Of a stretch of DNA of 5,032 nt, positions 452-5,032 are shown one piece after another. Origin of the DNA: Octopus sinensis (taxonomy: Eukaryota); contig NW_021830280.1 in the NCBI RefSeq assembly GCF_006345805.1, positions 1-5,032 of the forward strand. The letters are read 5' to 3'. The notes beneath the pieces are model-generated. The model did no database searches. It was not told where the DNA came from and was given only the letters and a program-made list of their open reading frames with translations. Both the position numbers and the translations under genes were made by a program. Each line of letters begins with the position of its first letter. The first letter of the stretch is position 1.

Positions 452-935
452 TTTTTGTTAACTGTTGTAAAGTAATAGGTATATAGTATGAGTGTTCTGT
501 TAGGTTTACCACTAAAACTCCGGCTCGAACTGCAACTGAAAGTGTGGTGTTTAGACTGCTTATCAGTTAGATATATTGAAACTAAATATGAAAAAGCAAA
601 ACGTTTGGCATCACCTGAAAAGGATATTTAACTTAGTTAGAGAATATAAATATACAGAGTCTCTTACAGCTGTTTGTAGAATAACCCAGCATGTGGATCA
701 TCATATTGAGTAAGATTCCATAAACTGATTATTCAGTCATCAGAGAGAAAGAACTCAGAGAGAATTGAAAATGAGGGTATATCCGTAGTGGCAGATATTA
801 GTATATTCCAGTTTGTCAAAAATAGGGAAAGGATCAGAGTAAAATAGTTATGCCTGAGGTAGTTCCGTGATCAAATAAGTAATACAGTTATAGGTAAGGG
901 CCATTAGCTATTTCAAAATGAGAGTGTTCGATGAT
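452..935 (-). mobile_element. Probable Penelope-like element pLTR/UTR segment, inverted relative to the adjacent endonuclease remnant (boundaries approximate)
   Basis: Contains a PLE-type hammerhead motif (657-756, -) and abuts the GIY-YIG remnant at 940. Its 855-920 part is a diverged inverted copy of 3114-3179. Confidence 0.45.
657..756 (-). ncRNA. Degenerate type I hammerhead ribozyme (HHR1), PLE-type with palindromic short stem III
   Basis: Minus strand reads GAGU-ucuuu-CUCU, CUGAUGA (plus 737-743), a long imperfect stem II (GAAUAAUCAG...CUGGGUUAUUC; plus 714-734 and 679-699), CAAA in place of GAAA (plus 673-676), C-AGCU-G, UA, then AGAG-ACUC. Predicted cleavage is after GUA, between plus 665 and 664. 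G12 is replaced by C, so it is likely inactive. Confidence 0.68.
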
Positions 936-939
936 AATT

Positions 940-1087
940 CATGGCAAAGAACTGTCGAAGTTATGTTATATATAACATAGCTTGGTCCATCGCTGACTCG
1001 GGTTCTCCATACGAAAGCCAACATGACCCATGTTGGCTGTGTTTGAGAGAATCTTTACAAACCCTGTCACATAAGCCTGTGAGTTAA
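940..1087 (+). pseudogene. Remnant of the C-terminal part of a Penelope-like element GIY-YIG endonuclease domain (5' piece)
   Basis: 940-969 reads HGKELSKLCY. After a frameshift or deletion, 971-1087 reads YNIAWSIADSGSPYESQHDPCWLCLRESLQTLSHKPVS*. This resembles the recalled PLE pattern ELSKY.W...Y.I.W.I......Y......C.LCL.E.L. Confidence 0.68.
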
Positions 1088-1357
1088 TTCAATTCAATTC
1101 AATTCAATTTTTATTGGCTCAAAAAGCAAAAGCAAGGCCATGTAGGGGGACAGGGAGTTATCTACAGGGAGGGTGGTCATACAAAGAGTTCAGGCCATTT
1201 CTGGTCAAGAGAGACTTTGAACCGAGCGGTCGTCTACATCTTCACTATCTCGTCCGGCAGCGTATTCCACGGATCCGCAACCCGGAGGGAGAAAGCTCCT
1301 CTCCTTCCATTGAGATGAAATCGTCGTAGATAAAGCTTTTCGGAGTGACCCCCGCAG
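1086..1357 (-). mobile_element. 5'-truncated CR1-clade LINE 3' end (ORF2 C-terminus, 3' UTR, (GAATT)n tail)
   Basis: Minus frame 1350->1177 reads GHSEKLYLRRFHLNGRRGAFSLRVADPWNTLPDEIVKM*TTARFKVSLDQKWPELFV*, matching the typical CR1 ORF2 end (RGH..KL...FS.RV...WN.LP..V....FK..LD). One in-frame stop at 1234-1236. AATAAA lies at plus 1110-1115, followed by the (GAATT)4 tail (plus AATTC x4, 1086-1105). Confidence 0.88.
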
Positions 1358-1423
1358 CATGAAGCCTTCTCTATGTGTGTCCACAATTCTTTTCAGTCAC
1401 TCAAGTTTCTACTACAGGTCTAA
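1358..1423 (+). pseudogene. 3' piece of the PLE endonuclease remnant, resuming after the CR1 insertion
   Basis: Reads HEAFSMCVHNSFQSLKFLLQV*, matching the recalled terminal PLE motif E..S.C.H...KFLL that follows C.LCL.E. Confidence 0.6.
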
Positions 1424-2103: not shown

Positions 2104-2500
2104 TAGTTTATAACATCGTCCTTTATAGAACCGCCACATTCTGTTAGTAAATAAACTTTACTATTCCGTACTGATATTTAAAACAAGTTGTTTTTCTCTA
2201 TACGAGATCAGTGACTGTGTGTCGCTTACAGAATTATATAGTGTTTGCGAGTGGAGAAAGCTTTATCAACAACCAGTGATTGTCTCACACTGAGAACGGG
2301 TAACTACTCAGAAACCATGGTCTGTGAGTATCACGTAAGGCTGGAAATGGGAGCGATTACCTCCCTTGCAAACACTATACGGACACAGACTGTGTGTCGA
2401 TAGCCAGCAGGAAAAGATATTTCCCTGGGGTATAAACAAAAGTAAGATTGTCCTTTATAGGAGCGACATATTCTGTTGGCAAATAAACTGTATTAGTTTA
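2104..2500 (+). mobile_element. Retrozyme-like non-coding element, copy A (monomer 332 nt plus terminal redundancy)
   Basis: 40-bp direct repeats at 2118-2157 and 2450-2489 (34/40 identical, period 332). Central hammerhead at 2284-2328, enclosed by stem 2237-2256/2361-2379. Homologous to 3928-4577 (-). Confidence 0.7.
2276..2334 (+). ncRNA. Minimal type I hammerhead ribozyme (HHR2)
   Basis: Stem I is CUCACA (2284-2289)/UGUGAG (2323-2328), extended by GUGAU (2276-2280)/AUCAC (2330-2334). Core is CUGAGAA (2290-2296; canonical CUGANGA). Stem II is GGGU-aacu-ACUC, then GAAA (2311-2314), stem III C-CAUG-G within palindrome ACCATGGT, and the GUC triplet at 2320-2322. Confidence 0.8.
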
Positions 2501-2876: not shown

Positions 2877-3113
2877 TGACATCTTCATCCCTTTATCTAT
2901 CCGTTTATATACATACATGCCCTAACATCTCTCGACATGCATACCCCCACTATACTGACTGGTATATGTTTACTCTACTACATCTACCCATCTGTCTTTC
3001 CTCCACATTCCAGTATAACATTCCTGTTAAACTATCATCCATCATCATTCTCTATTCAAAATAGGAACTGGTAACTTCCACATTTCCTCGCTATGGATTG
3101 TCATTGGATATTT

Positions 3114-3179
3114 TTATTTCAAACTATTAATTGATCTTACATATAAGTGTATTATCTATTTGATCTTGGAACTACCTCA
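3114..3179 (+). repeat. Diverged inverted-orientation copy of 855-920 (probable PLE UTR sequence)
   Basis: CTTACATATAAGTGTATTATCTATTTGATCTTGGAACTACCTCA here versus CTTACCTATAACTGTATTACTTATTTGATCACGGAACTACCTCA from the reverse complement of the 855 region. Confidence 0.75.
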
Positions 3180-3358
3180 CATCCTTAGAAAAATCCTATC
3201 AATTTAAATATCTGTGTTGTATTACATAAATATATTTTACTATCGTCCCTGCCAGACCCCTCCCCTGTACATACTGTAACATCTCTTACCATACACTTGC
3301 TCTAGGAGACTGGGTGTGTCTCGGCAAGTGTTTGTAACAAACATGCAGATTAAAAGCG

Positions 3359-3441: not shown

Positions 3442-3578
3442 ATAGGTATAGATATATGTGTGTATGTATATAGCATATGTATAGCGCTTCCGCTAGGTTC
3501 TTGCTTTGAATATCAAGAAATCGTATATGTCGACTAGCGATGTGTATATATGTATATATATATATATATACTGGACAT

Positions 3579-3870
3579 GGAGGCCCAGTGGTTAGGGCAG
3601 CGGACTCGCGGTCGTAGGATCGCGGTTTCGATTCCCAGACTGGGCGTTGTGTGTGTTTATTGAGCGAAAACACCTAAAAGCTCCACGATGCTCCGGCAGG
3701 GGATGGTGGTGATCCCAGCAGTACTCCTTCACCACTCTTTCTCTCACTCTTTCTTCTGTTGGCCTGCTCGCTTAGCCATGGGGTGGCGTCAATTCGAAGG
3801 CTAAAACAATGCGAACGCATTGTGACCAGCGATGTGTAGCAACATCTGATGGTCTGGTCAGTCACGTGAT

Positions 3871-3877
<7 letters not shown>
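3579..3877 (+). mobile_element. tRNA-derived SINE, near full length, with structured 3' end and (TA)n tail
   Basis: A-box-like AGGCCCAGTGG (3581-3591) and B-box-like GGTTTCGATTCC (3624-3635), CpG-rich body, 3' hairpins, ending TCACGTGATCACGTGA then (TA)n. Resembles an abundant octopus SINE (from recall). Confidence 0.85.

Positions 3878-3928
<51 letters not shown>
3878..3928. repeat. (TA)n microsatellite / SINE tail
   Basis: Directly visible; another TA-rich tract lies 5' of the SINE at 3545-3570. Confidence 0.97.
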
Positions 3929-3932
<4 letters not shown>

Positions 3933-4143
3933 AGAAAAGCAATTAGTTTTAAATCTCTGAGCAAGAAATAAGTAGCCAAAGTATTAGACTAAAGTCTATT
4001 TGCCAACGTAAAGTGGCAGTCCTGATTAGGACGATGTTTACTACATTTTTTAGCCCCCGGTAAACACCTTTTCCAGCTGGCTATCGACGCACAACTGCAT
4101 CCTTATACCTCGAATGAGGGACCTAATGTCCCCACTCAACCTT

Positions 4144-4373
4144 AAGGCGACGAGCTGGCAGAATCGTTAGCACGCCGGGCGAAATGCGTAGCCGTATTTC
4201 GTTACGTTCTGAGTTCAAATTCCGCCGAGGTCGACTTTACCTTTCATCCTTTCGGGGTCGATGAATTAAGTACCAGTTACGCACTGGGGTCGATATAATT
4301 GACTTAATCCGTTTGTCTGTCCTTGTTTGTCCTCTCTGTGTTTAGCCCCCTGTGAGTAGTAAAGAAATAGGTA
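4144..4373 (+). mobile_element. tRNA-derived SINE (second family), apparently full length
   Basis: A-box-like TGGCAGAATCG (4156-4166) and B-box GAGTTCAAATTC (4211-4222). The central CCGAGGTCGACTT..CCTTTCATCCTTTCGGGGTCGAT..ATTAAGTACC block resembles conserved invertebrate SINE central domains (which superfamily is not resolved). Ends in A-rich AAAGAAATAGGTA. Confidence 0.87.
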
Positions 4374-4419
4374 CCTGCGGACTAATGGTTTCTGCGTTAT
4401 TTCTCTTCATCGGCATAGG
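4374..4419 (-). ncRNA. Degenerate minimal type I hammerhead ribozyme (HHR3)
   Basis: Minus strand reads CCUAUG, CCGAUGA (plus 4407-4413; U4C), AGAGAAAUAACGCA (decayed stem II), GAAA (plus 4389-4392), C-CAUUA-G, UC, CGCAGG. It occupies the same position in the element as HHR2. Confidence 0.65.
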
Positions 4420-4602
4420 ATAACCTTGGCTGGAGATGGCAGCATTGGGCCCTTGCTTGAGGTATATAATTTTAAAGTGACACACACTCACTGATGTTGT
4501 AAGGAGAAAAACAATTAGTTTTAAATCTGTGAGCGAGAAATAAGTAGTAACAGTATTACAGCGTAAAGTCTATTTGCTACTGAACAGTCTAGTACTGCCA
4601 TT

Positions 4603-4903
4603 GCAAGTGTCTTCTACTATAGTCTCGGGCCGACCAAAGCCTTGTGAGTGGATTTGGTTGATGGAAACTGAAACAAGTAAAAGAAAAGAATATATTTATA
4701 TATGCATATATATGTTTGTGTATCTATGTTTGCTCCTCTATCATCGCTTGACAACCGATGCTGGTGTGTTTACGTCTCCGTAATTTAGCGGTTCGGCAAA
4801 ATAAACCGATAGAATAAGTACTAGGCTTACAAAGACTAAGTCCTGGTGTCGATTTGTTCGACTAAAGGCGGTGCTCCAGCATGGCCGGAGTCAAATGAAT
4901 GAA
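4603..4903 (+). mobile_element. 5'-truncated SINE (third family): body and 3' region with internal TA/TG microsatellite
   Basis: Starts at GCAAGTGTCTTCTACTATAG, the segment that normally follows a tRNA head, and runs to GGCGGTGCTCCAGCATGGCC.GAGTCAAATGA. Recognised from recall as a common octopus SINE body. Confidence 0.75.
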
Positions 4904-4957: not shown

Positions 4958-5032
4958 GGTGCAGGAGTGGTTGTGTGGTAAGTAGCTTGCTAAACACCAC
5001 ATGGTTCCGGGTTCAGTCCCACTGCGTGGCAT
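4958..5032 (+). mobile_element. tRNA-derived SINE head, truncated by the window end (probably same family as 4603-4903)
   Basis: A-box-like TGGTTGTGTGG (4968-4978) and B-box-like GGTTCAGTCC (5010-5019) at tRNA-like spacing. Confidence 0.8.

What the first reader, a model, noticed from the sequence alone, without database searches (positions are those of the whole stretch)
2237..2379. Hammerhead sits at the apex of a long stem that keeps pairing but not sequence between copies
Seen: in copy A, TATAGTGTTTGCGAG-t-GGAG (2237-2256) pairs with CTCC-CTTGCAAACACTATA (2361-2379), 19 bp with one G-U. At the same position in copy B, the quite different TATACCTCGAATGAGGGACCTAATG (4104-4128) is complementary to CATTGGGCCCTTGCTTGAGGTATA (4443-4466); the outer 8 bp are perfect, and the inner wobbles fit the plus strand better than the hammerhead strand. 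Stem I also differs (CUCACA/UGUGAG versus CCUAUG/CGCAGG). Inference: this compensatory turnover indicates selection on a viroid-like RNA fold in the parent families.
Basis: partly seen in the sequence, partly recalled or inferred. Interest (0 to 1): 0.75.

Follow-up and report, generated by a model that had tools for sequence, protein, structure and literature searches.

The report
Retrozymes keeping a long RNA rod
Two decayed copies of a small jumping element carry a hammerhead-ribozyme motif on top of a stem of about 45 base pairs whose letters changed in matched pairs across nine subfamilies of this genome, which likely means the parent elements were selected for their RNA fold; it is a new member of a known group, the animal retrozymes, not a viroid.

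Summary
The stems are real and positionally homologous. Copy A (+) and copy B (-, split by a SINE) belong to two subfamilies of a 350-360-nt repeat with a type I hammerhead; G000 holds at least nine subfamilies (627 core-pattern matches, control 5). Hammerhead stem I continues as a ~45-bp interrupted rod in all nine. Eleven pairs anchored on the core pair in 99 of 99 family cells (90 Watson-Crick, 9 G-U, 0 A-C on the hammerhead strand; shuffles 74, maximum 88). Insertions have Penelope-type anatomy and run through the cleavage site, which fits a circular or uncleaved multimeric template. Verdict: non-LTR retrozyme, likely mobilised by Penelope-like elements; new member of a known kind, with an unusually clear covariation record. 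Cleavage, circles and expression are not shown. Nothing indicates viroid-type replication.

The parts
2111..2495 (+). Copy A: about 1.15 units of retrozyme subfamily A1 (unit 353-354 nt in other copies; this copy lacks 22 nt after 2176), 5'-truncated partial tandem
2211..2225 (+). Conserved 5-bp hairpin 5' of the rod
   Evidence: (helix 1, 92% of cells paired)
2237..2256 (+). 5' arm of the outer stem, copy A
2276..2334 (+). Helix Ib (2276-2280 with 2330-2334), conserved internal loop, and type I hammerhead (stem I 2284-2289 with 2323-2328; core CTGAGAA, a G8A change from the family's CTGAGGA; palindromic stem III; predicted cleavage after 2322)
2361..2379 (+). 3' arm of the outer stem, copy A
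2382..2398 (+). Conserved 6-bp hairpin 3' of the rod
   Evidence: (helix 8)
3927..4145 (-). 3' part of copy B (subfamily B, unit 351-354 nt), ending on the (TA)n array at 3877-3929; holds the 3' arm (4104-4128) and the 3' hairpin (4086-4101)
4146..4370 (+). SINE-like repeat (tRNA-like head at 4146; label recalled, no call names it) inserted into the 3' strand of helix Ib of copy B, without a visible target duplication
4374..4419 (-). Type I hammerhead of copy B (core CCGATGA; 3-nt loop III variant; G-to-A changes break one pair in stem I and one in stem III)
4443..4466 (-). 5' arm of the outer stem, copy B
4371..4588 (-). 5' part of copy B, including the 5' hairpin at 4477-4491

Best explanation
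Copies A and B are decayed genomic insertions of two subfamilies of a non-coding 350-360-nt repeat with a type I hammerhead motif, a non-LTR retrozyme, and the matched changes in the rod below the hammerhead likely record selection on the RNA fold of the parent elements. Shown: the anatomy, the subfamilies, the covariation, its strand bias, neutral decay of the copies, Penelope-type insertion structure. Inferred mechanism: tandem source copies are transcribed; two hammerheads pair through their palindromic stem III and cut out monomers, which are ligated to circles; the rod clamps the two ends together (the cleavage site lies at its tip, so the arms are the 5' and 3' ends of the monomer) and nucleates the ribozyme fold; the reverse transcriptase and GIY-YIG endonuclease of an autonomous Penelope-like element start at one of two fixed points in mid-unit at a (TA)n target and copy round the template, giving partial tandems and inverted 5'-truncated partners. 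Only lineages whose RNA keeps the fold make the next wave of copies, so pairing is kept and sequence is not.
For: Covariation: 99 of 99 anchored cells paired in 9 families, 90 Watson-Crick, 9 G-U, 0 A-C; 0 of 100000 shuffles reach it (mean 73.7, maximum 88); all 11 pairs show at least two Watson-Crick types, at least 16 double changes in all. Outer stem: 15 of 15 pairs in A1, A2, B and C, 14 of 15 in I, 11-12 of 15 gap-free in D, E, G, H; seven consecutive pairs differ on both sides between A1 and B; cross-family arms pair at 4-12 of 15, except A1 with A2; 10 of 16 pairs with double changes in 29 copies. RNAalifold on 34 copies of ten groups: 23 of 29 predicted pairs have a double change. Strand: arm duplex stronger on the hammerhead strand in 9 of 9 families, G-U 28 against 10, p = 0.005; circular fold of a real family D monomer z = -5.7 against -3.1 (60 shuffles). 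Stem III loop: AT, TA, CG or GC as majority in all 10 groups counted; of the first 100 of 627 genome matches, 66 are palindromic, 19 are the TG/CA decay products of CG, 15 other (counted by hand). Neutral copies: non-CpG substitution rate 0.068 at paired, 0.067 at unpaired arm sites in 215 copies. Insertions: partial tandems and head-to-head inversions; family D has two fixed 3' ends 56 nt apart, mostly on (TA)n; 47 of 52 D segments cross the cleavage site, 5 cross it twice, 2 stop within 3 nt of it (about 1 expected). Penelope-like elements with RT and GIY-YIG and their own hammerhead-like motif are in the genome. The model matches PMC7229834, PMC4209133, PMC8557442 and 10.64898/2026.07.22.740005.
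Against: No cleavage, circle or transcript was shown. Rfam found no hammerhead in three stretches. Stem II of family B is weak (middle pair broken in 14 of 29 copies), B, C and I carry the U4C core variant, which lowers activity in vitro (PMC3088659), and 8 of 42 B copies have a non-palindromic 3-nt loop. Families are related, so the shuffle controls overstate significance; A versus B alone is one branch. D loci were chosen for holding a full unit, which inflates the crossing count (18 of 23 in the group with the shorter 3' end, mostly inverted partners). No sequence-sharing autonomous partner was found in 30 GIY-YIG loci of 150 listed or in 24 of 25 loci of a second Penelope-like family. In-register fold-back switching between arms exists (2 of 217 hammerheads) and could add perfect pairs without selection. 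RNAalifold on the ten-group alignment recovered only 4 pairs of the outer stem, because indels shift its register.
Confidence: 0.85

Rival explanations
1. The matched changes are a copying artefact: during reverse transcription the enzyme switches between the complementary arms and overwrites one arm with the mirror of the other, so no selection on RNA is needed.
For: Two of 217 distinct hammerhead copies have the 5' arm replaced in register by the reverse complement of the 3' arm (L056, L100). The A-to-B difference in the outer stem is one block of seven pairs, and the outer stems are almost all Watson-Crick.
Against: Mirror copying gives no strand bias, yet 9 G-U and 0 A-C are fixed near the core. 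Asymmetric internal loops persist in all nine families. Intermediates exist: group F shares part of the A-to-B change and B copies show a G-U state at one of the seven pairs. Only 1 of 25 inversion junctions in family D uses a predicted stem. It cannot explain the palindrome switches in stem III.
Confidence: 0.08
2. The unit is the terminal repeat (pLTR) of an autonomous Penelope-like element, and the rod works on long linear transcripts, without a circular stage.
For: Same insertion anatomy as Penelope-like elements. One B copy is joined directly behind a frameshifted RT/GIY-YIG reading frame (L045). An uncleaved multimer would also let reverse transcription cross the cleavage site.
Against: Units follow one another head to tail at 353-366 nt without coding sequence. 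The L045 junction is unique: 24 of 25 related copies continue with their own sequence. The Penelope-like 3' ends seen carry a different, minimal hammerhead.
Confidence: 0.1
3. The circles replicate RNA-to-RNA like a viroid between rounds of genomic integration, and the rod evolves in that phase.
For: The literature raises this for retrozymes from sequence heterogeneity and negative-polarity RNA (PMC7761336). The opposite strand of D also folds better than shuffles (z = -3.1).
Against: G-U bias favours one strand only; no opposite-strand ribozyme was seen in the scans run; subfamily succession is explained by ordinary master-copy turnover; a self-complementary strand always gives a fairly stable mirror strand.
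Confidence: 0.04

Closest known systems
Metazoan non-LTR retrozymes (Cervera and de la Pena 2020, PMC7229834; coral, mussel, axolotl)
   Same: Non-coding units of 150-450 bp with one canonical type I hammerhead, short palindromic helix III, GC below 50%, no LTR, PBS or PPT, self-paired predicted fold, Penelope-like elements in the same genome. Mussel units are 350-390 bp.
   Different: Here mostly dispersed 1-2.4-unit insertions with inversions, not long arrays; at least nine subfamilies of different age (2.5-14% from their majority) give a covariation series; no cephalopod example and no covariation analysis in the parts of the papers read.
Penelope-like elements and their pLTR hammerheads (PMC4209133, PMC8557442; 10.64898/2026.07.22.740005)
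   Same: Partial tandems, inverted 5'-truncated partner, a tail on one end, (TA)n targets, type I hammerhead predicted to work as a dimer.
   Different: No reading frame; tail is 56 nt against 30-40 bp described; canonical rather than minimal hammerhead; no shared terminal sequence with the autonomous elements inspected.
Newt satellite 2 and axolotl Rtz331/353
   Same: About 330-350-nt unit, weak palindromic helix III, dimer-dependent cleavage (PMC7229834).
   Different: Different phylum and sequence; the resemblance was not tested by alignment.
Hammerhead viroids (Avsunviroidae; features recalled)
   Same: Size near 350 nt, non-coding, hammerhead, self-paired fold with compensatory changes.
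   Different: Encoded in the genome and spread by reverse transcription; ribozyme seen in one polarity only; hammerhead free at the tip of a stem, not sequestered; no evidence of infection or RNA replication.

Membership tests
Type I hammerhead ribozyme | Core CUGANGA / GAAA / UH with three stems, stem I open | tested here: met
   Family majorities; 627 core-pattern matches against 5 in the reversed control. U4C variant in B, C, I; U3 variant in many D copies; window copy A has G8A.
Type I hammerhead ribozyme | 6-bp helix I and an internal loop 1 conserved for contact with loop 2 | tested here: met
   6-bp stem I then a 3 x 1 loop (TGT, TAT or TAC opposite T) at the same offset in 9 of 9 families; the contact itself is inferred from PMC4209133.
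Type I hammerhead ribozyme | Match to an Rfam hammerhead model | tested here: not met
   No hammerhead family at E <= 1 in the window or E <= 5 in L238 and L120. A library miss, not a defining biochemical feature.
Type I hammerhead ribozyme | Site-specific self-cleavage | not testable with these tools
   Needs in vitro transcription.
Non-LTR retrozyme | Non-coding unit of 150-450 bp with one type I hammerhead | tested here: met
   Units 351-366 nt; no frame of 80 codons or more over either window copy apart from one that runs through the TA array.
Non-LTR retrozyme | Tandem copies with two or more hammerheads | tested here: met
   Same-strand hammerheads 353-366 nt apart in L015, L136, L140, L152, L153, L195, L224, L261, L275; the window copies themselves have one each.
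Non-LTR retrozyme | No LTR, PBS or polypurine tract | tested here: inconclusive
   Terminal repeats are partial tandems with random 5' ends, not LTRs; PBS and PPT were not searched for.
Non-LTR retrozyme | Expressed as monomeric circular RNA | tested here: inconclusive
   Only contigs of runs whose RNA nature is guessed were available.
Non-autonomous Penelope-like element | Partial tandem, inverted 5'-truncated partner, tail on one end | tested here: met
   fixed 3' ends at unit positions about 179 and 235; 25 head-to-head junctions in 33 D loci, one pair of loci being a duplicate.
Non-autonomous Penelope-like element | Autonomous RT + GIY-YIG element in the same genome | tested here: met
   (L163: RVT_1 and GIY-YIG over cut-off; open frames up to 883 codons listed).
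Non-autonomous Penelope-like element | Terminal sequence shared with the autonomous partner | tested here: inconclusive
   None in 30 of 150 listed GIY-YIG loci or in 24 of 25 loci; most Penelope-like families were not inspected.
Viroid (Avsunviroidae) | Hammerheads in both polarities | tested here: inconclusive
   None seen on the opposite strand by Rfam or by the motif scan for this family's core; other ribozyme types were covered only through Rfam.
Viroid (Avsunviroidae) | No DNA form; autonomous RNA-to-RNA replication | tested here: not met
   Hundreds of genomic DNA copies with retrotransposition scars.

The most novel reading that the evidence does not exclude
The youngest subfamily (D, near-identical copies) is a live circular RNA that also replicates RNA-to-RNA, and the nine or more subfamilies in this genome are a dated fossil series of a viroid-like replicon whose rod evolved in the RNA phase and was periodically written into DNA by a Penelope reverse transcriptase.
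Probability: 0.06. Interest if true: 0.88.

Novelty: new member of a known kind. Interest (0 to 1): 0.45.

Why it matters
The self-paired folds of animal retrozymes rest on energy predictions in the parts of the papers read here. This genome gives comparative evidence: a strand-specific covariation record for a ~45-bp rod beyond the ribozyme, and four different palindromes in stem III that fit the dimer model. Two open questions become testable with one young subfamily: whether Penelope-like enzymes mobilise retrozymes, and whether their template is the circle (insertions start mid-unit and run through the cleavage site up to twice). It extends retrozymes to what looks like a cephalopod genome (inferred from size, 2.72 Gb, and recalled SINEs). 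It is not a new class of element.

Tried and rejected
Rfam scans found no hammerhead; the miRNA hits are TA/TG microsatellites. No tRNA gene. RNA evidence: no RNA holder listed. Contigs of four runs guessed to be RNA were laid on tandem locus L136: a 391-nt contig in X1 and a 390-nt contig in X5 lie wholly on the tandem, which equals one 361-nt unit plus about 30 nt, as a closed assembly cycle would; X2 and X8 gave only pieces or a contig running into other sequence. A tandem array in DNA or a multimeric transcript gives the same cycle and depth was 8-12, so this is not counted as evidence. Contigs laid on copy A were short, mostly under 90% alike, and ran on into unlike sequence. Search for the autonomous partner: a HTH family accession was not in the library; 30 GIY-YIG loci showed no shared end (the hit in L182 is a separate insertion behind a TA array); the L045 junction is a one-off. 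The idea that inversion junctions generally use the rod was rejected for family D (1 of 25). The idea that the plus strand of B is the functional fold was rejected. A first structure string was wrong and was not used. Groups F (4 copies, mixed) and J (2) were left out of the anchored counts. The search of earlier findings by sequence returned nothing. Literature: retrozyme + hammerhead + octopus gave 2 papers, neither read as describing this family (PMC8557442 passages read, PMC10886601 listing only); hammerhead ribozyme + cephalopod 2; Penelope + octopus + non-autonomous + ribozyme 0; retrozyme + covariation 7, listings only. The supplement of PMC7229834 could not be read, and Repbase and Dfam are not searchable here; either may already list this family.

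Full report
Observation. Copy A's arms form 19 pairs with one G-U; copy B's outer 8 pairs are perfect, and its + strand duplex is stronger than its hammerhead-strand duplex, -29.7 against -20.4 kcal/mol. Copy A is on the + strand (2111-2495, hammerhead 2284-2328); copy B is on the - strand (about 4588-3927, hammerhead 4419-4374) and is split by a SINE-like repeat at 4146-4370. The flanks of the arms align at 72-83%, so the arms are positional homologues.

What it is. The window is G000:C6751:1-5032 of a 2.72-Gb genome; that it is a cephalopod is my inference from size and recalled SINEs. Searches with A and with the two halves of B gave 1799, 577 and 1553 first-look candidates, 40 scored each. 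Pattern searches for the hammerhead core gave 5, 180, 278 and, with any loop III, 627 matches against controls of 0, 4, 0 and 5. These led to further subfamilies. From 300 loci, 221 copies covering both arms were assigned by best seed to A1 (32), A2 (6), B (42), C (29), D (41), E (37), F (4), G (15), H (9), I (4) and J (2); F and J were left out of most counts; divergence from the family majority runs from 2.5% (D) to about 14%. Units measure 351-366 nt.

Covariation. To avoid alignment choices I counted the 11 pairs at fixed offsets from the core: stem I and the next 5-bp helix. All 99 cells of nine families pair: 90 Watson-Crick, 9 G-U, no A-C. Shuffling 3' letters among families gives 73.7 +/- 2.7, maximum 88 in 100000; with only five distinct lineages, 55 of 55 against 39. 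Every pair shows at least two Watson-Crick types, at least 16 double changes in all. Between the A1 and B majorities seven consecutive pairs differ on both sides; C and I have further versions; A1's 5' arm pairs with B's 3' arm at 11 of 15 and with C's at 6 of 15. In D, E, G and H the outer stem has extra loops (11-12 of 15 gap-free), yet the whole arm duplex has 40-47 pairs in every family. RNAalifold on 34 copies recovered stem I, helix Ib, two flanking hairpins and four outer pairs, 23 of 29 pairs with a double change. Relatedness inflates all shuffle controls; the lower bound on distinct pair types does not depend on them.

Strand. The duplex is stronger on the hammerhead strand in 9 of 9 families, with 28 G-U against 10. 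Copy B differs from its family by several changes, three of them G-to-A in the outer arms, which make A-C on the hammerhead strand and G-T on the other. With the SINE in place the + strand of B folds at -120.9 against -95.8, part of it within the SINE.

Where selection acted. In 215 copies non-CpG sites change at 0.068 when paired and 0.067 when unpaired; CpG sites at 0.128. Single changes give 391 G-U and 306 A-C, and double changes 66 against 43 expected; both excesses are largest in A1 and B, which contain sub-lineages, and I read them as hidden family structure (inference). Both window copies look inactive: A has G8A in the core and a 22-nt deletion; B has broken pairs in stems I and III and the insertion.

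Stem III. The octamer ACC-NN-GGT has AT in A1, B, C, D, TA in A2 and F, CG in E, G, H and GC in I: always self-complementary, so at least three double changes. In the first 100 of 627 matches 66 are palindromic, 19 are TG or CA, 15 other (hand count). Short palindromic helix III and dimeric cleavage are described for metazoan type I hammerheads (PMC4209133, passages). Against: 8 of 42 B copies, and window copy B, have a 3-nt loop.

Mobilisation. Copies occur as partial tandems, often with an inverted 5'-truncated partner, the anatomy of Penelope-like elements (PMC8557442, passages). In family D the 3' ends fall near unit positions 179 and 235 after the cleavage site, mostly on (TA)n, and 5' ends are scattered. 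Of 52 segments (three duplicate loci and four short or irregular pieces dropped), 47 cross the cleavage site, 33 exceed one unit, 5 cross twice, 2 stop within 3 nt of it. The loci were selected for a full unit; in the group with the shorter 3' end, 18 of 23 cross. A cleaved linear monomer cannot be the template of these; a circle or an uncleaved multimer can. Elements with RT and GIY-YIG are present, and 14 of 30 such loci carry a minimal hammerhead-like motif with a U3-A8 core and a palindromic ACATGT downstream of the endonuclease match. No shared terminus was found, so the partner is unidentified.

Rivals. Fold-back switching between the arms occurs (2 of 217) and may contribute, but it predicts no strand bias and would erase asymmetric loops. 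A pLTR acting on linear RNA remains possible. RNA-to-RNA replication is raised in PMC7761336 (passages) but nothing here requires it.

Comparison and novelty. The element meets the sequence-level features of metazoan non-LTR retrozymes (PMC7229834, parts 2-4 of 6 read plus passages; supplement unreadable) and fits their reading as non-autonomous Penelope derivatives (10.64898/2026.07.22.740005, parts 1-3 of 5; supplements not seen). PMC3088659 (passages) documents the U4C and U3-A8 variants; PMC5680766 (passages) does not mention cephalopods. Four searches found no description of this family; repeat libraries were not searchable. Cleavage, circles and expression are untested. Verdict: new member of a known kind with a good covariation series; interest 0.45.

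Noticed in passing
L136:900-2270 (G000:C15), L140, L152, L153: Family D is young (2.5% from its majority; a subset has identical cores), has a 361-nt unit and head-to-tail tandems; its core comes in two forms, CCGACGA and TTGACGA.
   Followed up: partly
L045:400-1860: A frameshifted Penelope-like RT/GIY-YIG frame is joined without spacer to a family B unit that ends on (TA)n; unique among 25 related copies. Could be a template-switch chimera, which would tie this family to retrozyme mobilisation, or an insertion with deletion.
   Followed up: partly
L163:2362-2398 and 13 more of L156-L185: Penelope-like elements carry a minimal hammerhead-like motif with a U3-A8 core and palindromic stem III near their 3' end; L164, L168, L169, L170 and L174 have other versions.
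   Followed up: partly
L100:1416-1633, L056: Inversion junctions in register with the rod: the 5' arm is replaced by the mirror image of the 3' arm.
   Followed up: yes
L109:1315-1706: Three hammerheads in tandem at about 87-nt spacing, a minisatellite made from the ribozyme-proximal part of an A2-type unit.
   Followed up: no
window 3575-3870: A second SINE-like repeat with a tRNA-like head at about 3580, next to the TA array on which copy B ends; further SINE-like pieces at about 4590-4900 and 4960-5032 (labels recalled).
   Followed up: no
window 855-963 and 3072-3179: Inverted repeat of 109 nt at 75% identity, 2.1 kb apart, enclosing copy A; possibly two fragments of another repeat.
   Followed up: no
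window 1075-1400 and 2880-3340: Short stretches that read like decayed LINE 3' fragments (by eye, no call).
   Followed up: no
L095: The same SINE-like repeat that splits copy B also sits in a family C copy, at the end of its 3' arm.
   Followed up: no
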